Assembly (NCBI GenBank): GCA_000165425.1
Contig: CT868085.1
Span: forward strand, 434,001 to 498,000
Direction of reading: 5' to 3'
Source: Paramecium tetraurelia
Taxonomy: Eukaryota
DNA length: 64,000 bases
Shown here one piece after another: positions 10,532 to 58,585 of this stretch. Position 1 is the first letter of the stretch; each line of letters begins with the position of its first letter. The position numbers were made by a program, and so were the translations under genes. Under the pieces are notes generated by a model that saw nothing but the letters and a program-made list of their open reading frames with translations, was not told the DNA's origin and searched no databases.

Positions 10532-10791
10532 TATTTAAATTAATAACTGATAATGTATTAAAATATTTTATAAATAAAAATTATTTTTTTTTATCAAATC
10601 AATAGAAATATTTAAGATTTGTTTGTTAAAGGAGTGTCATCTCTATAGAGATATTTAAGAATTCATAAACTTTAGAAAAAAAATAATTTTCTTAGGATTT
10701 ATGCATTCAATTATAGATAATTAATTATAGAAATATTAATTTATGTGTATTTATAATTTTTGATACTTATGATATAATAATCACAATCCTC

Positions 10792-13074
10792 TCATTGCTT
10801 CTTTTCCTCTTCGAAGGTTGGGAAATCAGTGTATCCCTTTTCATCTCCTCCAAAATAAGTCTTGAAGTCAAAATTAGTATTGAGTTAGAAACCATTTCTT
10901 ACTCTGTATACTAGATCTGGATTGTTTATATATAATTGTCCAAAGGAAACTGCATCGTACAAGCCATCTTTGATATCCTGATTAGCTCTTTCAGGAGTAA
11001 TAGAATGGTTTGCAAACAATATTCCTTTGTAATGTGGTCTCAATGATTTGTAAAGGTTTTGAATCTGCTTATCAGAAGCTGGATAGCCATGTCCATCAGC
11101 ATTTTCTTAGCTCTTGTCTTCGACCAAAGTGACATAAGCCAAATTGAGTTTGGATAATTGTTGTAACAGATAGGTGTACAGTTGAATTGGATTGCTATCA
11201 TTCATGTCTCCCGTGTGACCAATAGGTGTTAGTTTGATACTAACTCTTCCTGGGAAGATGGTGTTCAACTTTTGTATAAGTTGAATTACAAATTTGCATC
11301 TATTTTCAACACTTCCTCCCCATTGATCTGTTCTTTTATTAGCACTATCTCTAAGGAATTGATCAGGAAGATGTCCATTACCACCATTGATTTCTACTCC
11401 ATCGAATCCAGCAGTCTTAGCTCTTTTAGCAGCATCTACAAATTCTTGTAATGTAAATTGAATTTCAGCTTCAGTCATCTCGTGTGGTTTTTCAAATGGT
11501 TTGTTTTAAGCACTATAGCAATTTCCTCTGATTGCAATGGCAGATGGTGCCCATGGTTCTAATCCATTCTACAATGAGGAATGAGTTTTTCTTCCTCCAT
11601 GAAATAGTTGCAAGAACAATCTACCTCCCTTATCATGTACAGCTTTTGTTACTAAAGCCCAGCCTTTAGCTTGATCATCATTATAAATGCAAGGTGATCC
11701 TGGATATGACATGGATCTTTGACTTACTGGAGTGGCTTCACAAACAATTAGCCCAGCTGTTGCTCTCTAAGCATAATATTTAACATTTAATTCAGTTGGA
11801 ATGTATGGAGCAGGAGTTCTGACTCTATCCATTGGAGACATGGTGATTCTATTTGGTAAAAACAAGTCATTGATCTTCAATGGGTTCATCAGTTCAGTTA
11901 GGATATTAGATGGCACTTGATATTTAGGGTAGTCAGTGTATCCCTTTTAATCTCCATAGAAAGCAGTTCCCCAATCAATACTTCTGTTTAATTAATAGCC
12001 ATTTCTAGCTCTATCAACAAGATCTGGGTTGGATATGAAAAGTTGACCAAAGGCAACAAAGTCGAATTTACCTGTTCTGATTCCTTCATCAGCTTCCTCT
12101 AAGGTGATTCCTCCATTAGCCACTATAGCTCCAGTGAAATAGTTTCTGAATGCTGAATAGACACAAGGTATTTGTTTCTTTGATGCTGGATATCCGAAGT
12201 CTTAGAAGTTTTCTGGATCACTTTCATTCTTTAGTACAACATAGGCAATTTTGAGATTGCTCAAAGCTCTCAACAAAGTTTAATATAACTCCAAAGGATT
12301 TGAATCATTCATATCACCATGATGTGTAACTGGAGTTAGTTTGACTCCAACTCTACCAGCTCCAAAGACATCAACTAATTATTAAACAACTTCTAATAAG
12401 AATTTGCATCTATTTTAAGCACTTCCTCCATAAGAATCAGTTCTTTTATTAGCACTATCTCTCAAGAATTAATCTGGTAAATGTCCATGTCCTGCATTCA
12501 ACTCTACTCCATCAAATCCAGCTTTCCTTGCTCTTTCAGCTGCCTCTTTGTATTACTTCACCACTAAATTAATATCTTAAATTGTCATTTCTTAAGGAAC
12601 TTCGAAGTCCTTCTTAACAATTTGATTCTAGCCTCTAATTCTGACGGCTGATGGTGCCAAAGGAGTTTAGCCATTTTATAAGCTAGAATGAGTCTATCTA
12701 CCACAATGAAGTAATTGGATGAAGATATTTCCCTTTACGGAATGTACCTTGTCTACAACCTTTTTCCATCCTTCAGTATGTGCATCATTGAATATTCCTG
12801 GTGCTCCACCATAAGCCAATGAACGATCACTTATTGAGGCTGATTCTGTTACTGTAAATCCACCAGCTGCTCTTTGGGCATAGTATTCGGCATGGTGATT
12901 TGTAGGGACTAAGTCTTGACCACATCTGCCTCTTGTCATGGCAGATAGAGTAATTCTGTTCTTGCACTCCAATCCAGGGGACACCACTGTTGTAGAAAAG
13001 CAGCCTGTTCTTTCGATCAGACCTAATTTGTAAGGTTAGAATAAGGCCTAATAAGGTGTATTTGATTTCTCCAT
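10792..13074 (-). CDS. Tandem two-domain Old Yellow Enzyme (NADH:flavin oxidoreductase/OPR family), 760 aa, intronless
   Basis: One TGA-free frame of 2283 nt; two complete OYE barrels (NRI..MTR/MDR, YYAQRA, QLxHxGR, AGFDGVE, NKRTDxxGGS, NPDLV, GYTDxP) joined by KYQVPSNILTE. Confidence 0.93.
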
Positions 13075-13208
13075 TTTTTCTTAATTAATTGATTACTTTC
13101 ATTTCCAAATTCCTAAAATACCCAAAAATACTGCGTACTATTTTTAGAAAAATTTAAAAAAATTTCACAAACATGATTTAAATTTATTATTATAAATAAT
13201 TATTTATA

Positions 13209-14429
13209 TCAATTTAAAAAGAATTTGTGATCCAAGGCTTAAGAACAACTTATTCTTTTATGAGGATCAATTTCTAGCATCTTGACTAATAAATCTCTAA
13301 GCAAAGGGTCAAGTATCATTTCCCTTAGACTCTGCTGTTTCTTCACCTTTAGTACACTTTCCTTTGTAGTTGTTCCCTATGGCCATATATAGTACTTTCC
13401 ATTAGTGGCATTTTTGACGTTGAAACAATGTTTTAAGCACCCCTTCACATTACTTGCCATCCAATGAGGAAAACTCTATTCAGTTACCTTCTCAACCAAA
13501 GCCATATGTTCGAATTCATTCTTCCTTGTTTAAAATAGTAAATGTCCTAGCATATAAAATTTATTGGTACCTGTGTACATTTCAAAGATGATGCAAGCTA
13601 TTCCCCACACGTCACTTTTCTAATCCCATCTACAACACTACAACTGAACCTCAGGAGCTCTATATTGACGTGTATTAATTATACAATTATGGTCTTCATC
13701 ATCGAATTCAGCTCCACCAAGGTCGATAATCTTGATCCTGTGATCTGCTGGGAGATACCTAAATGAGAATTTAAATATTATCATACAAGTCATTCTGTTT
13801 CTACAACTGACGAATTCTACTAAATAGAATGTTCTCTGGTTTTAGATCTGTGTGAGTCAATTTTATTTCATGTAAGTGCCCAATGCTTTTAATTAATTAT
13901 CTGCTGATGCTTCTAATCAAATGCATAGGAATCCCACGATTTTGATTCAGTCTTAGCATATCATTTAAACTTGGTCCAAGCTAAAAATCAATATAATTTA
14001 AACAATACTCTCTCAAACACCATACAATAATATCCTCTATGATAGAAGCTTTCAATTATTTCAACAAAATATCTATTTAAATCTTTCTTTTTCAAATAAA
14101 ATAGTATGTCTGCTTCTTACTACGCACTTTCAGCATGATTGCTTCTCACTATCTTCATGGCATAGGGATTTAGAAATTTCCTTCTTCTCACTTTCAAAAA
14201 CTCTTCCAAAAGTCCCATCGGAAATATGTCTTCTTATTTTATAATCCTTGATGTGTTCACCCTTTCGATATCTATAATGTTTGTAGTCATCACTAGAAGA
14301 ACTTCCATTTGATCCTTCATCAGTGACATTCGATGTACTTGTAGAACTACGATTCGATATGTATTTATACTATTTAGCTTTTCTATACGATCTTCGATTT
14401 GATCTTCTATGAGATTCTTTTGAGGACAT
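13209..14429 (-). CDS. LAMMER/CLK-family dual-specificity kinase; apparent +1 frameshift just after the Gly-rich loop
   Basis: DGTFGRV, YAMKIVR, HTDLKPENIL, IIDLGGA, TRQYRAPEV, EHMALVE; three tiny introns; frame changes near 14190-14200. Confidence 0.85.
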
Positions 14430-20095: not shown

Positions 20096-21764
<1,669 letters not shown>

Positions 21765-22901: not shown

Positions 22902-24578
<1,677 letters not shown>

Positions 24579-25719
24579 TATTATATAATTTAATAGGATA
24601 TAATTAAATAATTTGATTTGTTTTGATTGAAAAAATTATGAATATTATGGGATAGATGTTAACGAGTATTCTTTGCTAATAAAGAATGCTTAGAACTTAG
24701 ACATTATAGTTAAAAAGATTTAGTTATATTGCTCATTTGATGCAAAAAATAATTGTGGATCCTTACTTTTTCATTGACTTTAATAGCTTCTTATCATCAT
24801 GCCAGACCCTTAGACTAATAAACTAATTGAAATTAAGTTTTTATGAAAATAATAGATACATTATGGTAATCAATTTAATGGATAATATGTATTTTACTTC
24901 TCTAATAATGTCAAAGAGGGCTTGAAAGTACTCCTTAATTTTTCTATTTTTAAATACTTGTTTGTTCATTAATAGATAAATTTAGATTAGAGTGGTATTT
25001 AATTTCAAGATCTCTTCAATTTTTAATCTGATACCTAAATATTTTTAATTAGTTTGTACTCCTTTGAGTTAAGCTATTCTTATAGAATTAATCTCACTAA
25101 ATTAGATTATAGTTTGCCTATGTCTTAAATTTGATTGACAGAACTTTCAAATATAATCCTTTTAATATAGATATAAGTATTATTCTGCTTAGTTTAAGGA
25201 TTTAAGCGTAAAATAGAAAGTCCTATTATCCTTTCTTCAAATTGTAATGAATCAGAATTACTTGAGGATTTCCTTTTAAATTTATTGAATTTTTATATTT
25301 GTGTTAGTATTCTATTATAAGATTTCGATTAATTTAGATTTTGAAAGATTTAAATGGACTTTAGATATACCATTTATTTATTCATTTAGTTACCAATAAT
25401 TTTATATCTCTAATTTATAAAGGAATAGGATATAAACCCCAATGTCCTTTTCAACATAATTTATTTGTGTGTAAGTTAATAAACATTTTTCAAAGTCTTT
25501 ATAAATTTTAACAGTAATTTATTGTAGTAATTTCTTCTAATAAGAGTTAAATCATTCCAATACTAACGAATTATGTTTTAAAATTTATGATAATAAGAAT
25601 TATTAATGTATTAATAATGTAAGTTATTATATTTATATATAAATTAAGAATGATATCATAACACATTATCAATATGATAATTAGTTGCAATGAGATTTAA
25701 TATTATTTTATGAATGTAA

Positions 25720-53130: not shown

Positions 53131-54067
53131 ATGATTCTATTTAATAAATATAATATAATTATGATTTTAAACCAAACCTTCCACAAACGAAATATAATGT
53201 TAAAAATATCATTAAATATATTACTGATGATCTATTCATTAATAATAGAGATCTGTAAAGTTCTTACTCTTAATATTAAAGAACTATGAAAGAATAGAGA
53301 CTACTTTTTATTAGTATTCATTAGATATTAAAATAACATATAAAATTTATGTAAATTAATGGCCGTTTAACTTCAGGTGATAAATACCCTGAAGCCAATA
53401 TAGAAAAAGAGGCGGCTGAAATGGCATCGAGAATTATGGAGAGAGTTCGTTAAAAATCAAATGTCAAATCTGCTTAAAGGATAATAGTGAAACCAGAAAA
53501 TTTTAGATCAAGTGATTATAAACCTAGACCTTCTGATATTCAAATCGGTAGGGAAGGAACCACATCTATTACTGATCGTAATGAACTCAATTTTGAACCT
53601 AATTTCAATCAATTCAATCCCCTCAAAAATGGCTTTACATCAAAAAACAATTTAATCGAAACCATTAAAATACCTTAAAGATCATAGTTCAAATCGGCAT
53701 CTACAGGTATGTAAGACATCTTTTAAAAAACTGTTAAATTAAACAATAACAATTATTACGTACCTGAATTTTAATCATAATCTACTACTGATAAACCAGA
53801 TAGCACTAAATTAATTAAACTAACGTATACAATCTTATTAATAATAATAGTGATAGTGTAAGTAGTCTGGTAAATCAGAAATACGATCTATAAGCTAAAC
53901 ATAGAAGAGTAGAAAGTAATACACAATTTAAGCCCATTTTAAATACAAAACCGTATCAATTACACACTCCTGTTAAGTAGAATAAAGAAGACATAGTTTC
54001 ATAATTATTAGGAAGTTTACGAAATCAGAAGAAATACTCAGACTATAAAAATTCAGCTGAAAAATGA
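53131..54067 (+). CDS. Hypothetical protein
   Basis: Long code-6 frame that includes VKPENFRSSDYKPRP; one tiny intron near 53824; start uncertain. Confidence 0.55.
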
Positions 54068-55735
54068 ACTACTATATAAAAATTTAATTTACTCTAAAAT
54101 AAATAAGTACAAGATAAATCTAATTAAATCCATTTTCATGTAATAATTAAGTAAATTCACATAATTAAATCACATATAATAATTTATCTGATATTTTTTT
54201 AAATTTACTTTTTTTTATCATTAGGTAATTTGTTTAAAAAATAAATTTTAATACATCAATTATTAGGTTTAAATAAATTATCATAATAATATATATAAAT
54301 TTTATTAGAATAAGTATTTCTTGAATTAAAGCATTGGTTAATAATATTTGATTAAATTGTAATATTAGTAGTCATTACTTTGCGTGAGTTGTATATTTAA
54401 TATCTATTAGACTAAATATATTATTCTAAAAATAGTTATTCATGAAATTTACACTAAAATTCCATGCTAATATTGACGTATGTAGGAAATATATTCATCA
54501 CTTTTTAAAATTTAATATTTTTATTCCTTATATCAAAAATGTTTATTAACTCCTCTTATAACGTTTCGAAAAAAAAAATTATCATAAAAAATTTTTAGAC
54601 AACCCCCATAAATTTCCATATTTGATTTGAATTATAATACTAAGACAAAAGGCATCGATTTTTATCGAATTGATTTTTGAATTCATCAACAATTTATTGT
54701 CTTTAATTTATGTAATTTCTTTTTATTGAGGAATATAATATTAAATATCTTTAATTATATGAAAAAATTCTTAATTAACTTTGATCATAAGTCATGAATA
54801 TTTTATATGCTTAAGACTTCATATAAAAATTCAAGGTGAAAAGATAGAATTTGAAATTTAAAAATTAAATAACCATTAATTTTTTTAGGAAAACTTGAAT
54901 AGTAATAAATTCAAACAATTAAATTTAATTTAATCGATTTTAAAGCTTCTTGTATATCTATTAAATTCAAATTGACTTTGAATAAGTAAATACTTCTATT
55001 ATTCTTAATATTAATCGAGCTATTTAATTTGTTTGAGGCTTTTCTTAGAGCTGTAAACAAGGTCATGTTCAATTTTTTATCAGAAATTATGAATTTGTAT
55101 CATTAGGAAAAATTCAAGATATTAAGAAAGCATTTGTACCTTCTGTAATATATTTAAAAATCTATATGGGGGGGATCATTTTGATTTGAGATGTAAGTTA
55201 TATTTATGTAAGTATTAATTTTGAATGTTGCGTTTGAGGTATCAACAAGACAAAATATAAATAAATAACATATAAGGTTTATTGATTTTAAAAATATAAA
55301 TTAATCGAAACATTATGATAAAAAAATATAGCATTTAATTTGCTTCACAAGAAATAGAGTAAATATACAGGTCATCTCTATTGATTGGGATAAAATATCG
55401 ACGGGAATATACATATGGAATATTATGTATCTATCTAGGACTGATTATAATAAAGTATAATTTATAACACGTTTTGCTACCTCAAATATTTGCAGCTGTT
55501 GGAATAACATTAGAATTGGCACTGTTTTTTTTTATGAAGAAATATTGGTAATAGAAAGAAATATTGATTACTCTGAATATGATTTTTATGGCTGCGATCT
55601 GTGAAAGCTTGAGATTATTTGGACTTGAGGATTATCAATGGTATTATGGTTAACATTCCACTTCGCTTAAATTAAGTAAGATATCAATCTTAAGCTTAGT
55701 AATTTATTTGTAGGGAAGTTAGTTTTTAATTTAAT

Positions 55736-56550
55736 NNNNNNNNNNNNNNNNNNNNNNNNNNNNNNNNNNNNNNNNNNNNNNNNNNNNNNNNNNNNNNNNN
55801 NNNNNNNNNNNNNNNNNNNNNNNNNNNNNNNNNNNNNNNNNNNNNNNNNNNNNNNNNNNNNNNNNNNNNNNNNNNNNNNNNNNNNNNNNNNNNNNNNNNN
55901 NNNNNNNNNNNNNNNNNNNNNNNNNNNNNNNNNNNNNNNNNNNNNNNNNNNNNNNNNNNNNNNNNNNNNNNNNNNNNNNNNNNNNNNNNNNNNNNNNNNN
56001 NNNNNNNNNNNNNNNNNNNNNNNNNNNNNNNNNNNNNNNNNNNNNNNNNNNNNNNNNNNNNNNNNNNNNNNNNNNNNNNNNNNNNNNNNNNNNNNNNNNN
56101 NNNNNNNNNNNNNNNNNNNNNNNNNNNNNNNNNNNNNNNNNNNNNNNNNNNNNNNNNNNNNNNNNNNNNNNNNNNNNNNNNNNNNNNNNNNNNNNNNNNN
56201 NNNNNNNNNNNNNNNNNNNNNNNNNNNNNNNNNNNNNNNNNNNNNNNNNNNNNNNNNNNNNNNNNNNNNNNNNNNNNNNNNNNNNNNNNNNNNNNNNNNN
56301 NNNNNNNNNNNNNNNNNNNNNNNNNNNNNNNNNNNNNNNNNNNNNNNNNNNNNNNNNNNNNNNNNNNNNNNNNNNNNNNNNNNNNNNNNNNNNNNNNNNN
56401 NNNNNNNNNNNNNNNNNNNNNNNNNNNNNNNNNNNNNNNNNNNNNNNNNNNNNNNNNNNNNNNNNNNNNNNNNNNNNNNNNNNNNNNNNNNNNNNNNNNN
56501 NNNNNNNNNNNNNNNNNNNNNNNNNNNNNNNNNNNNNNNNNNNNNNNNNN
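55736..56550. other. Assembly gap (815 N)
   Basis: Run of N. Confidence 1.
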
Positions 56551-57672
56551 AGATTGAATAAAGAGATAATTAGTAATATGTATTAATATAGATTAGTTTA
56601 GTATAATTCAAAAGTAAGTTTATCATTAATTACTCAATAAATGCAGCTCATTTAATCATTGCTTAGTTAATTATAAACCTTTACTCCCTTTAAGTAAGAC
56701 ATATTGACTAAATTCTAATAGACCCTGTAAAAATAAACGTAAATTAGTTATTATTTGTATAATCTTAATAATAATTTGCTGAATCTTTTTAAAATATCTC
56801 ATAGATTAGTTAAATACGAATTTCAAGAAATCTAAATTGAATAATTTTTTAAAAGTCTGTGTGATAATCTACTTATTAATTACAAATCAACAAAGTTTAT
56901 AAACTTCTCAACGAAAAAAGAGTTAATAAAAACAGATAAGAATAAATTAATTTCTATTATCATGAACATAATGGAATTCATGAAAATTTTACTGTCCATT
57001 ATACATTCAGAAGACAGTATAATTTATTAGATGCATCCAATGAAGAAACCTTTTTGTCTATCCATAAAACAATCCAAAGTGCATAAAGATTCCATTCAAA
57101 TAACTTTGACTCATCCTAATTTAAACATTACCAATCAAATGATTACTCTAATTTAAAATATCTAACCAGTTTCTATTGATGATAAAAAAAGAAATTGGAA
57201 TAGTAAGAACTATTTTGAAATGATTAATAATTTAAATTAAACACTCTCTGAAATGATTGATCATTATAAAAATGAGATGTAATCTGTTACATCAATTTCT
57301 TTAGGATTACAAAATATCAAATACAACCATACCAATCCTCAAGATAACTAAAAGAAATAATTTAACACTTTAGGATATATAATGGCTTCATACTTCATTA
57401 GTCAATTAGGTCCTTCTAATAAAATTTTATTCAAATAAGCTCTAATAGAAAATGATATGTTGAATCCTTAATATGTTTCAGCGCTTTATTAGACAAAGAT
57501 ACAATTTACCATTTATAAGGATTTGCAAAATTTTTCAAAAGAGGTTTCCCAAATAAAGAACATCTCTGTTGATGAGAATCAGTATTTTTCTCCAAAAAAA
57601 TATACTAATTAAGAAATTACTGAAAGATTACTCCAAATCCAAGTGGAAGATTAGATAAAAAGATTATTTTGA
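56551..57672 (+). CDS. Hypothetical protein, 5' end lost in the gap; frame not fully resolved
   Basis: Coding-like frame over about 57170-57672 ending RLF*. Confidence 0.4.
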
Positions 57673-57703
57673 ATACTAAAAAGGAAAACTTACACTAAAA
57701 ATA

Positions 57704-58585
57704 TCATTGATTATTATCATTATCCTATTTTTATTATTAAAATCGAGGGTATTCAAATATCAGGTCTTATTGTAAAGATTTGTCTAAAATACTAGTTTCA
57801 AATACACTAGATCTTTTGGCTGCTATACTCTTTTATAAGCTTTATGCTCGCGTTTATTAAGAAAAAATGTATTTAGATTTGATATCTGAGTTAGCTATTG
57901 AATTAAATGAAGTGTGCTTTTTGTTAGAAGAATCGAATCTAGCTTTTCTTACACTTGCTTATATCTACTATTAATAGTCTTAAAGCAATTTTGGTTCATT
58001 AGTTAGTAGTTTAAAATTTTCGTTATAGTTCAATAGATATTGATTTTCTTACAATTCTTCTTTGAATTTTTAAAGTGTTAGTTTGAGTTTTTCGTTTTTC
58101 TGGACTTACTTGAATAATGCTTCTTTTGTGAACATTAATTCCTAAGATATAGTTAAATGAATACATTTTCTAAAAATATATTTGTTTTCTTAAGTGTTTG
58201 GACGTTCTACTTTAATTGTTTACATTATTCATTTAGTGAATGACATTCTTATCTAAAGAGTACCATCTTATTTTATGCATTAACAACCTGCTTAAATAAT
58301 ATCAATTACTTATGATTCTTATTCGTTCATTGCAATGTATTGATGAAATTTCTCATTGATTTATTCAATATCTTTTTTAAGGGTTTCCAAAACTTACTTA
58401 AATGCATTTAAAATGTTGTTTTGTTATGATTTTAACATCTAATTTACATTTTTGTTAGTTTCACCTATGAGACCTTACATTTCTTAACAAAGTTCCTACA
58501 TATTTTTGGCTTAATCTGGATGTATTTTTTCAAGAGTTGGTAATATATTTTTATTTTCAGTTATGAATAGTGGTTACTCTGTCAT
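57704..58585 (-). CDS. Coiled-coil hypothetical protein
   Basis: MTEQPLFITE... with VLFRQECHSL heptads; tiny intron near 58287-58308. Confidence 0.6.

What the first reader, a model, noticed from the sequence alone, without database searches (positions are those of the whole stretch)
10890..12960. Both OYE domains share a rewired active site
Seen: domain 1 reads GVELNAGHGHL (12481-12498) and domain 2 reads GVEINGGNGHL (11371-11388), where the family has GVEIHxAN/HGYL. In OYE1 numbering His191 becomes Asn and the proton donor Tyr196 becomes His in both. The flavin-contacting Arg243 motif (GxRLSP) is KLTP in both. The phosphate-binding Arg348 motif (GRxFIxNPDL) is GQLFISNPDL and GQLYINNPDL, encoded by CAA, so this is not a code artefact. 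The Trp116 position is L/F. Thr37 is kept in domain 1 (MTR) but is Asp in domain 2 (MDR). Inference: shared changes predate the duplication and have been conserved, which points to a distinct OYE subclass with altered chemistry or flavin properties rather than random decay.
Basis: partly seen in the sequence, partly recalled or inferred. Interest (0 to 1): 0.8.

Follow-up and report, generated by a model that had tools for sequence, protein, structure and literature searches.

The report
Paramecium double OYE with rewired pocket
A well-expressed Paramecium gene encodes two fused Old Yellow Enzyme barrels that both replaced the family's usual catalytic histidine and tyrosine before they duplicated and have kept the new residues under strong selection, so it is a real but lineage-restricted variant of a well-known flavoenzyme whose chemistry is still untested.

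Summary
Window 10792-13074 (-) is one intron-less 760-aa gene under the ciliate code, with two PF00724 barrels. Domain 1 reads N193/H196/H198 and domain 2 reads N563/N566/H568, where the family has H-x-x-N/H-x-Y.

- The two barrels are sisters, and together they are sister to Paramecium's own canonical single-domain OYEs. The rewiring therefore happened once, before the internal duplication.
- On that stem, 6 of 127 family-conserved columns changed. Four are pocket residues: the Trp116, His191, Tyr196 and Tyr375 slots.
- Selection is strong: dN/dS is about 0.05 against a metagenomic orthologue, and identity among aurelia species is 88-97%.
- The mRNA is abundant.

Lys at the Arg243 slot is present in all four canonical ciliate OYEs compared. 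Gln at the Arg348 slot occurs in 25 of 422 canonical relatives.

The Asn191+His196 combination was absent from 506 related domains. A DNA motif scan found it once more in Paramecium-like DNA and once, convergently, in a Fibrobacteria genome. So this is a lineage-restricted paralogue, not a broad subclass.

It is probably still a flavoenzyme with altered substrate activation and protonation; that is untested. Moderate interest.

The parts
10792..13074 (-). Whole gene: 760 codons plus TGA stop, no introns, ciliate code (22 in-frame TAA/TAG = Gln)
   Evidence: exact match to a protein on record in a cluster with Paramecium orthologues; RNA reads show no joints
11917..13074 (-). Domain 1 (residues 1-386), OYE TIM barrel
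   Evidence: PF00724; AF2 mean pLDDT 94.0, pTM 0.93; Foldseek TM 0.93-0.96 (target-normalised) to NemA 3gka, NostocER1 6uff, XenB 4ab4
10795..11916 (-). Domain 2 (residues 387-760), OYE TIM barrel, 52% identical to domain 1
   Evidence: AF2 mean pLDDT 95.9, pTM 0.94; Foldseek TM 0.90-0.96 (target-normalised) to NostocER1, GsOYE, CtOYE, XenB, NemA
12481..12498 (-). Domain 1 pocket motif N193-A-G-H196-G-H198 (slots of OYE1 His191, Asn194, Tyr196)
11371..11388 (-). Domain 2 pocket motif N563-G-G-N566-G-H568
12709..12711 (-). L122, Trp116 slot of domain 1 (Phe in P. octaurelia)
11602..11604 (-). F491, Trp116 slot of domain 2
11959..11961 (-). F372, Tyr375 slot of domain 1
10852..10854 (-). F741, Tyr375 slot of domain 2
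12934..12936 (-). T47, Thr37 slot of domain 1 (canonical)
11827..11829 (-). D416, Thr37 slot of domain 2; Asp seen in 0 of 506 related domains
12340..12342 (-). K245, Arg243 slot of domain 1 (ciliate background, not part of the rewiring)
11233..11235 (-). K614, Arg243 slot of domain 2
12043..12045 (-). Q344 (CAA), Arg348 slot of domain 1; spelt TAA in the orthologue L001
10936..10938 (-). Q713 (CAA), Arg348 slot of domain 2
10737..13103 (-). Transcribed unit as covered by oligo-dT RNA reads; poly(A) trace at about 10736

Best explanation
This is a functional, highly expressed, Paramecium-lineage paralogue of the classical (class I) Old Yellow Enzymes.

An ancestral canonical ciliate OYE (His-x-x-His/Asn-x-Tyr, Trp116, Tyr375) was remodelled in its substrate pocket. 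His191 became Asn, Tyr196 became His, Trp116 became a smaller Leu/Phe, and Tyr375 became Phe. The remodelled barrel was then duplicated in tandem into one 760-aa polypeptide. Afterwards domain 1 turned the second pocket residue into His (N-H-H), and domain 2 turned the flavin-O4 contact Thr37 into Asp (N-N-H plus Asp).

Shown here: the order of these events, their conservation, purifying selection, expression, and intact predicted barrels.

Inferred:
- Each barrel still binds FMN. Gln114 is kept, a positive Lys sits at the Arg243 slot as in canonical ciliate OYEs, and the NPDL phosphate loop is kept.
- Each barrel is still reduced by NAD(P)H.
- The acceptor side is changed. An Asn-based hydrogen-bond pair polarises enones and phenolates less well than a His pair. 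The proton comes from a His (or water) and not from Tyr. The pocket is wider and less polar.

My best guess is an NAD(P)H-dependent flavin oxidoreductase that has moved away from classical enone reduction, towards quinone-like or bulky lipid-derived acceptors or towards acid/base-assisted chemistry. The two barrels probably have different flavin potentials (Thr47 against Asp416).
For: Gene and family:
- One open 760-aa frame under table 6.
- Two PF00724 stretches, E 5.8e-136.
- 138 solved OYE sequences match at E <= 0.001, the best being NerA at 6e-78.

Fold:
- Mean pLDDT 94.0 and 95.9.
- TM 0.90-0.96, normalised to the target, to NemA, NostocER1, XenB, CtOYE and GsOYE.

Timing:
- D1+D2 are sisters at SH-aLRT 99 in two trees.
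- The pair is sister to the canonical Paramecium single-domain OYEs P0439 (H-H-Y) and P0445 (H-T-Y) at 98.
- All are nested with the Tetrahymena and Stylonychia OYEs.

Targeting:
- 127 columns are >=70% conserved in 374 single-domain relatives.
- Six of them changed on the stem, meaning they are kept in both canonical Paramecium paralogues and changed in both domains.
- Four of the six are the slots of Trp116, His191, Tyr196 and Tyr375.
- Hypergeometric P is 2e-5 to 6e-4 for 6 to 12 assumed pocket columns.

Rarity among 506 related domains from 491 proteins:
- Asn191 in 6.
- His196 in 2.
- Both together in 0.
- Asp37 in 0.

Conservation:
- Of the 18 slots tallied (nine per domain), 16 are invariant in 6 aurelia sequences. 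The two exceptions are L122F and H198T in P. octaurelia domain 1.
- 308 of 386 domain 1 columns and 339 of 374 domain 2 columns are invariant.
- All 11 pocket slots covered by the metagenomic orthologue L001 are identical. Four of them differ synonymously, including Gln344 as CAA against TAA.

Selection: Nei-Gojobori dN 0.090, dS 1.67, ratio 0.054 over 454 codons; 0.030 for the domain 1 part and 0.096 for the domain 2 part.

Expression:
- Three oligo-dT RNA runs from one study cover 10712-13103 on one strand at bin depths of about 45-860 over the body of the gene.
- The two neighbouring genes reach <=17.
- There are no joints and no base differences.

Compatibility of single changes with a folded enzyme: PDB titles list PETNR H181N (3p74), W102F (1vyp), Y351F (3p8i) and Y186F (2abb), and a GluER variant containing T36E (8vcn).
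Against: - No biochemical datum exists. FMN binding, NAD(P)H reduction and every statement about acceptors are inference from sequence and from recalled mutant work.
- Domain 1 of P. octaurelia has Thr at the Tyr196 slot and Phe at the Trp116 slot, so His198 of domain 1 is not strictly required.
- Asp416 next to the flavin O4 in domain 2 is unprecedented in my sample (0 of 506) and could weaken flavin binding.
- Selection and expression show that the protein matters, not that it catalyses.
- dS is near saturation, so the ratio is rough.
- Both trees are quick IQ-TREE searches with SH-aLRT support only.
- The RNA evidence comes from one study.
Confidence: 0.68

Rival explanations
1. It is an ordinary ene-reductase. 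The Asn/His or Asn/Asn pair still binds the activating carbonyl, water or His supplies the proton, and the substitutions only tune substrate range.
For: - All family-wide structural features are present.
- 84 of 506 related domains already depart from the H-N/H-Y triad, so the triad is looser in nature than reviews state.
- A review notes a natural homologue with Cys for Tyr196 (PMC9292831, passage read).
- Lab mutants at the equivalent PETNR, NemA and OPR3 tyrosine were crystallised (titles).
Against: - Four pocket residues changed together on one branch while both canonical Paramecium paralogues kept them. That pattern looks like a shift of function beside retained canonical copies.
- The Asn191+His196 combination is absent from 506 relatives.
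- From recall, not checked here: OYE1 H191N and H191N/N194H lose most cyclohexenone reactivity, and Y196F slows the oxidative half-reaction greatly.
Confidence: 0.2
2. One or both barrels are non-catalytic: a flavin- or ligand-binding, sensing or structural protein kept by selection. Other OYE-like proteins are reported in such roles.
For: - A review describes a fluorescent FMN-binding OYE homologue purified from a brown-alga flagellum (PMC2781859, passage read).
- Earlier notes of this scan describe OYE-shaped barrels without catalytic residues that are kept by selection (not checked by me).
- Domain 2 has lost the His of the pair, the Tyr and the Thr37 contact, yet it is the more conserved half (95.6% against 91.2% mean pairwise identity).
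Against: - Gln114, the positive residue at the Arg243 slot, the NPDL loop and the rest of the family-conserved columns are largely kept, unlike a gutted barrel.
- The replacing residues (Asn, His) are still catalytically competent types placed in the same slots.
Confidence: 0.1
3. It is an artefact or decay: a mis-read genetic code, a wrong gene model or a pseudogene.
For: The frame needs 22 reassigned stops.
Against: - The key residues are spelt with ordinary codons (AAT, CAT, CAA).
- The same 760-aa protein is on record, and it clusters with orthologues from four other Paramecium species.
- dN/dS is 0.054.
- The mRNA is abundant, unspliced and polyadenylated.
Confidence: 0.01

Closest known systems
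Classical (class I) OYE ene-reductases: NostocER1 (6uff), NemA (3gka), XenB (4ab4), NerA (4jic), CtOYE (6s32), PETNR (1gvo)
   Same: - Same Pfam family and the same TIM barrel: 33-41% identity, TM 0.89-0.96 normalised to the target.
- Gln114, the GFDGVE strand, YGGS, ENR and NPDL motifs are kept.
   Different: - The pocket reads N-x-x-H/N-x-H where these enzymes have H-x-x-N/H-x-Y.
- Trp116 slot is Leu/Phe; Tyr375 slot is Phe.
- Two barrels sit in one chain.
- Domain 2 has Asp at the Thr37 slot.
Paramecium's own single-domain OYEs (P0439 from P. octaurelia, P0445 from P. pentaurelia)
   Same: - Nearest relatives in the tree, SH-aLRT 98.
- 49% and 45% identical to domain 1.
- Share Lys at the Arg243 slot and Lys at the ENRxR slot.
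   Different: They keep His191, Tyr196, Trp116 and Tyr375, and they have one domain.
Laboratory mutants: PETNR H181N (3p74), W102F (1vyp), Y351F (3p8i), Y186F (2abb); OYE1 entries 1bwk and 1bwl
   Same: - Each natural change here has a crystallised single-mutant counterpart (titles).
- 1bwk and 1bwl are distinct OYE1 sequence variants in the PDB.
- I recall them as H191N and H191N/N194H. The latter would be exactly the domain 1 pair.
   Different: - The mutants carry one or two changes on a canonical background. Here four to five changes coexist and are naturally selected.
- The identity of the residues changed in 1bwk and 1bwl, and their kinetics, are recalled and not checked. The paper is not held, and searches for H191N and H181N found nothing.
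Natural OYEs without the catalytic Tyr: morphinone reductase (Cys; identity recalled), Paraburkholderia 'alkene reductase' cluster (L-Q-H), an unnamed metagenome cluster (H-S-H)
   Same: - The Tyr196 slot is replaced in a conserved lineage (for the Cys case as stated in PMC9292831).
   Different: - These keep or change the 191/194 pair in other ways.
- They are single-domain and unrelated in the tree.
Fibrobacteria MAG OYE (L002 907-2094, minus strand)
   Same: Same N-x-x-N-x-H triad as domain 2, and Phe at the Tyr375 slot.
   Different: - Only 36% identical to domain 2, no closer than other bacterial OYEs, so it is convergent.
- Single domain.
- Keeps Trp116, Arg243 and Arg348, and has Ala at the Thr37 slot.
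Other tandem OYE proteins: Bacteroidota (P0003-P0006) and trypanosomatids (P0002, P0007-P0009, P0013)
   Same: Two or three PF00724 barrels in one chain.
   Different: - They are independent duplications: separate clades, with each lineage's own domains grouping together.
- The Bacteroidota ones are canonical. Among the trypanosomatid proteins, P0007 reads Q-N-F in both domains, P0009 reads D-N-S and Q-N-F, and P0002 reads H-N-Y and H-G-Y.

Membership tests
Old Yellow Enzyme family (Pfam PF00724, Oxidored_FMN) | Profile match above the curated cut-off | tested here: met
   453.7 bits against a cut-off of 27, two stretches, best stretch covering profile positions 13-341 of 342
Old Yellow Enzyme family (Pfam PF00724, Oxidored_FMN) | Eight-stranded alpha/beta barrel superposable on solved OYEs | tested here: met
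   AF2 mean pLDDT 94.0 and 95.9. Foldseek TM 0.89-0.96, normalised to the target, to solved OYEs. These are predicted, not solved, structures.
Classical (class I) OYE clade | Groups with PETNR/NemA/NostocER1/OPR-type sequences and not with YqjM-type ones | tested here: met
   The best solved matches are all classical: NerA, NostocER1/All1865, GsOYE, XenB, NemA, OPR3, PETNR. The gene nests among ciliate and bacterial class I-like sequences. No YqjM-type sequence was put in the trees.
Classical OYE ene-reductase (functional class) | Substrate-activating pair His191 plus Asn/His194 | tested here: not met
   Domain 1 reads Asn193/His196 (order swapped). Domain 2 reads Asn563/Asn566. 422 of 506 relatives have the full H-N-Y or H-H-Y triad.
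Classical OYE ene-reductase (functional class) | Proton donor Tyr196 | tested here: not met
   His198 (Thr in P. octaurelia) and His568
Classical OYE ene-reductase (functional class) | Flavin contacts: Thr37, Gln114, Arg243, phosphate loop with Arg348 | tested here: inconclusive
   - Gln114 is kept in both domains.
- Thr37 is kept in domain 1 and is Asp in domain 2.
- The Arg243 slot is Lys, as in 49 of 422 canonical-triad relatives and all four ciliate canonical OYEs.
- The Arg348 slot is Gln, as in 25 of 422 canonical-triad relatives.
- This is sequence only; no ligand was modelled.
Classical OYE ene-reductase (functional class) | NAD(P)H-dependent reduction of activated C=C bonds | not testable with these tools
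   Needs purified protein.

The most novel reading that the evidence does not exclude
The tandem protein is a naturally evolved OYE that no longer works as an ene-reductase. A histidine acts as general acid/base over the flavin, an Asn-based pair is the oxyanion hole, and the pocket is widened and apolar. With this it carries out chemistry that engineers now try to coax from OYEs, such as redox-neutral C=C isomerisation, desaturation, or reduction of a non-enone acceptor. The two fused barrels are tuned to different flavin potentials (Thr47 against Asp416) and divide the work between them.
Probability: 0.15. Interest if true: 0.7.

Novelty: new variant of a known kind. Interest (0 to 1): 0.42.

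Why it matters
OYEs are workhorse biocatalysts. A 2021 review treats the His/Asn pair and the Tyr proton donor as almost universal (PMC9292831, passage read). This gene is a natural, selected, highly expressed counter-example. Its history is unusually clean: canonical paralogues are retained in the same genome, a handful of pocket changes fall on one branch, and the remodelled barrel was then duplicated. That makes it a ready-made natural experiment on what the triad is for, with back-mutation controls defined by the sister paralogues.

It also corrects the picture for annotators. In my sample of near relatives, 84 of 506 domains are non-canonical at the triad, while Lys243 and Gln348 are harmless variants. 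The physiological role of OYEs in ciliates is unknown. Searches for 'old yellow enzyme' with Paramecium, with ciliate and with Tetrahymena found no paper on a ciliate OYE.

Tried and rejected
- Whole-genome search of the window's own assembly: no genome is held, so I could not count OYE paralogues in this genome directly.
- Yardstick for between-species conservation from other genes of the window: 0 of 10 long ORFs matched the collection exactly, probably because those genes have introns. I therefore have no local baseline for the 88-97% identity.
- Index of sequencing runs: no RNA holder was listed among the indexed runs. Expression evidence comes only from laying three raw-read runs.
- Literature: 'old yellow enzyme' with Paramecium gave 0 papers. 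With ciliate it gave 2 and with Tetrahymena 1, none about a ciliate OYE. 'H191N' with old yellow enzyme gave 0. 'C26D' with YqjM gave 0. 'H181N' with PETN reductase gave 0. The OYE1 His191/Asn194 mutant paper is not held, so its kinetics are recalled only.
- The SSN survey preprint (10.1101/2023.07.10.548207; abstract, outline and section 6 read) does not discuss these residues. Its supplements were not opened.
- Pocket geometry from the models: coordinates are not exposed to scripts.
- The idea that Asn191 was inherited from the unnamed N-N-Y proteins P0142 and P0158 was dropped. They looked like neighbours in the first tree (support 86). Once the ciliate paralogues were added they fell into a separate clade.
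- A complex prediction for domain 1 with domain 2 was not sent, because I make no claim that the barrels bind each other.
- Earlier notes for this place: none.
Full report
**What is there.** Read with the ciliate nuclear code, the minus strand from 13074 to 10792 is a single open frame of 760 codons containing 22 TAA/TAG glutamine codons. The exact protein is already on record. It sits in a 90%-identity cluster with orthologues from Paramecium pentaurelia, P. primaurelia, P. octaurelia and two from P. sonneborni, so the window comes from a species of the P. aurelia complex. Pfam's Oxidored_FMN model (PF00724) matches twice (E 5.8e-136). Residues 1-386 (domain 1) and 387-760 (domain 2) are 52% identical to each other. 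Each is 33-41% identical to solved classical Old Yellow Enzymes.

All the following were read directly.
- Domain 1 reads GVELNAGHGHL, with N193-H198 at bases 12481-12498.
- Domain 2 reads GVEINGGNGHL, with N563-H568 at bases 11371-11388.
- The solved relatives read GVEIHAANGYL in a gap-free stretch of alignment.
- A degenerate DNA pattern for the rewired motif hits the window twice, at exactly these two places, and hit none of 100 shuffles.

**Which of the changes are unusual.** I cut all relatives returned by four searches into domains and mapped each onto domain 1. This gave 506 domains from 491 proteins. It leaves out the tandem Paramecium proteins and the extra cluster members fetched.
- The triad is H-N-Y in 396 and H-H-Y in 26. 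The remaining 84 are non-canonical in many different ways.
- Asn at the His191 slot occurs in 6 of 506, His at the Tyr196 slot in 2 of 506, and the two together in 0.
- Asp at the Thr37 slot occurs in 0 of 506.
- Lys at the Arg243 slot occurs in 84 of 506, including 49 of the 422 canonical-triad domains.
- The Arg348 slot is Arg in only 267 of 506. Gln occurs in 26, and 25 of those have canonical triads.
- Solved FMN-containing enzymes read GKAF (NerA) and GTLF (All1865/NostocER1) at the Arg348 slot.

The sample is biased towards the nearest relatives of this protein and is not a census of the family.

**When the changes happened.** A profile search brought up Paramecium's own single-domain OYEs: P0439 from P. 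octaurelia (49% identical to domain 1) and P0445 from P. pentaurelia. It also brought up a Tetrahymena OYE (P0465). A Stylonychia OYE (P0347) had already appeared.
- All four keep His191, Tyr196 and Trp116, and all four already have Lys at the Arg243 slot.
- In a 54-row tree, D1 and D2 are sisters (SH-aLRT 99). The pair is sister to P0439+P0445 (98). All lie in a clade with the Tetrahymena and Stylonychia proteins and unnamed, transcript-sized sequences (93).
- An earlier 83-row tree gave the same D1/D2 sisterhood. It also showed that the tandem OYEs of Bacteroidota and of trypanosomatids are separate inventions.
- Both trees are quick IQ-TREE searches with SH-aLRT support only.

After the duplication, domain 1 changed Asn194 to His and domain 2 changed Thr37 to Asp.

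**The changes are aimed at the pocket.** 127 alignment columns are at least 70% conserved in 374 single-domain relatives.
- Six of them are kept in both canonical Paramecium paralogues but changed in both tandem domains: Ala to Ser (44/413), Trp116 to Leu/Phe, His191 to Asn, Tyr196 to His, Ser to Thr in the R-L-S-P motif (247/616), and Tyr375 to Phe.
- Four of the six are residues that line the substrate pocket. His191, Asn194, Tyr196, Phe250 and Tyr375 are named as OYE1 active-site residues in PMC3915301 (passages read). His191, Asn194 and Tyr375 are named as ligand-binding residues in PMC9304392 (passage read). The role of Trp116 is recalled.
- If 6 to 12 of the 127 columns are counted as pocket, four or more hits out of six has hypergeometric P between 2e-5 and 6e-4.
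- The pocket set is partly recalled, so the P value is indicative only.

**Selection and expression.**
- Among the six aurelia sequences, 308 of 386 domain 1 columns and 339 of 374 domain 2 columns are invariant. Mean pairwise identity is 91.2% and 95.6%.
- All nine tallied slots of domain 2 are invariant. In domain 1 two vary, both in P. octaurelia: L122F and H198T.
- The DNA pattern scan of 241 million metagenome records returned one contig, L001 (1365 bases). Under the ciliate code it is open end to end (454 aa, 21 reassigned stops) and encodes residues 96-549 of the same tandem protein at 85.7% identity.
- All 11 pocket slots that L001 covers are identical. Four are spelt differently, among them Gln344 as TAA where the window has CAA.
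- Nei-Gojobori estimates give dN 0.090 and dS 1.67 (near saturation), a ratio of 0.054. The ratio is 0.030 in the domain 1 part and 0.096 in the domain 2 part.
- Three oligo-dT RNA-seq runs with the same species label, all from one study, cover 10712-13103 on one strand only. Bin depths over the body of the gene are about 45-860, against at most 17 over the neighbouring genes. There are no joints and no base differences, and a few reads show a poly(A) trace at about 10736.

The gene is intron-less, abundant as mRNA and under strong purifying selection in both halves.

**Fold.** AlphaFold2 with 91-row alignments gives mean pLDDT 94.0 (pTM 0.93) for domain 1 and 95.9 (0.94) for domain 2. Foldseek places both on NemA, NostocER1, XenB, CtOYE, GsOYE, NerA, PETNR and OPR3, with target-normalised TM-scores of 0.89-0.96. 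The same lists hold crystallised laboratory mutants that mirror the natural changes one at a time: PETNR H181N, W102F, Y351F and Y186F, and a GluER variant that includes T36E. I could not reach the model coordinates.

**How widespread it is.**
- A word search aimed at the 61 residues around the motif returned 120 listed hits, none with Asn191+His196.
- The exhaustive representative search lists no protein more than 45% identical to domain 1 among its best 150.
- The pattern scan of one genome for each of 185,579 prokaryote species returned a single hit. It is a Fibrobacteria MAG whose 395-aa OYE reads GVEVNAANGHLLDQF, the N-N-H triad of domain 2. It is only 36% identical to domain 2, so it is convergent.
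- His at the Tyr196 slot also occurs in a Paraburkholderia 'alkene reductase' cluster (L-Q-H) and in an unnamed metagenome cluster (H-S-H).
- The pattern is strict, and eukaryote genomes other than those in the protein collections could not be searched. Absence elsewhere is therefore not shown.

**How it most likely works.** Established mechanism, as summarised in PMC9292831 (passage read): the His191/Asn194 pair hydrogen-bonds the activating group of the substrate, hydride goes from reduced FMN to the beta carbon, Tyr196 protonates the alpha carbon, and NAD(P)H re-reduces the flavin.

In this protein the hydrogen-bond pair survives in altered form, as Asn/His in domain 1 and Asn/Asn in domain 2. 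The proton-donor slot holds His, and two aromatic pocket walls have lost an indole and a hydroxyl. From recall, unchecked here: OYE1 H191N and H191N/N194H keep FMN and NADPH reduction but lose most enone reactivity and phenol binding, and Y196F cripples enone reduction but not oxygen or quinone reactivity.

I therefore infer a flavoenzyme that is still reduced by NAD(P)H. Its acceptor side has moved away from classical enone reduction, with His (or water) as acid/base. I also infer that domain 2's Asp416 shifts its flavin potential. The P. octaurelia Thr at the domain 1 donor slot suggests that domain 1 depends less on that residue than domain 2 does. Only the anatomy, history, selection and expression are shown. 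FMN binding and chemistry are inferred.

**Comparison and verdict.**
- By sequence and predicted fold this is a member of the OYE family and of its classical clade.
- It fails the two catalytic-residue criteria of a canonical ene-reductase, so I do not file it as one.
- It is a new variant of a known kind: a lineage-restricted, tandem, pocket-remodelled paralogue.
- No paper on a ciliate OYE turned up in searches for 'old yellow enzyme' with Paramecium, ciliate and Tetrahymena.
- Earlier notes of this scan record other non-canonical OYEs on other DNA, including a tyrosine-less bacterial lineage and flavin-less barrels (not checked by me). Departures from the triad are therefore not rare as such.
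- Interest is moderate. The evolutionary case is clean and gives well-defined experiments, but the family is well known and the chemistry is untested.

Noticed in passing
window 12976-13020 (-), residues 19-33 of domain 1: Domain 1 carries a ~15-residue insert (LIERTGCFSTTVVSP) in the N-terminal hairpin. Domain 2 and the seven single-domain relatives aligned with it lack it. It is invariant in all six aurelia sequences but is modelled with low confidence (block 21-30 mean pLDDT 54).
   Followed up: partly
P0124 (P. octaurelia orthologue), domain 1: The two pocket slots that vary within the aurelia complex change together in one species: L122F and H198T (GHGTL). His to Thr needs two base changes.
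   Followed up: partly
window 13071-13072: In all three RNA runs many molecules end exactly here, just inside the ATG at 13074-13072 (for example 181 and 73 molecules at depths of 387 and 328 in X21). This may be a transcription start next to the start codon, or read trimming at the A-run just upstream. It was not resolved.
   Followed up: no
L002 907-2094 (-), Fibrobacteria MAG: A bacterial single-domain OYE with the same N-x-x-N-x-H triad as domain 2, Ala at the Thr37 slot and Phe at the Tyr375 slot. It is the genome's only full-length PF00724 match.
   Followed up: partly
P0213 cluster (Paraburkholderia, some on plasmids) and P0261 cluster (unnamed, contigs of 1.1-1.5 kb): Two further conserved OYE lineages with His at the Tyr196 slot: triads L-Q-H (11 members) and H-S-H (25 members).
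   Followed up: no
P0002, P0007, P0009, P0013 and similar (trypanosomatids); P0003-P0006 (Bacteroidota): Independent tandem or triple OYE proteins. Among the trypanosomatid ones, P0007 reads Q-N-F in both domains, P0009 reads D-N-S and Q-N-F, and P0002 reads H-N-Y and H-G-Y. The Bacteroidota ones are canonical.
   Followed up: partly
window 13209-14400 (-): The upstream neighbour translates to a protein-kinase-like sequence (HTDLKPENILF). It is expressed at about 2-17 reads deep, against hundreds for the OYE gene.
   Followed up: no
window 20613-21764 (+) and 23652-24704 (-): Two ORFs on opposite strands share a nearly identical kinase stretch ([55 protein letters not shown]). The first continues into EF-hand-like sequence, so they look like a pair of calcium-dependent kinase paralogues (translations).
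   Followed up: no
window 54001-58000: The G+C content drops to 0.17-0.18, against 0.23-0.35 elsewhere. Long overlapping ORFs appear on both strands under the ciliate code at 55100-57672.
   Followed up: no
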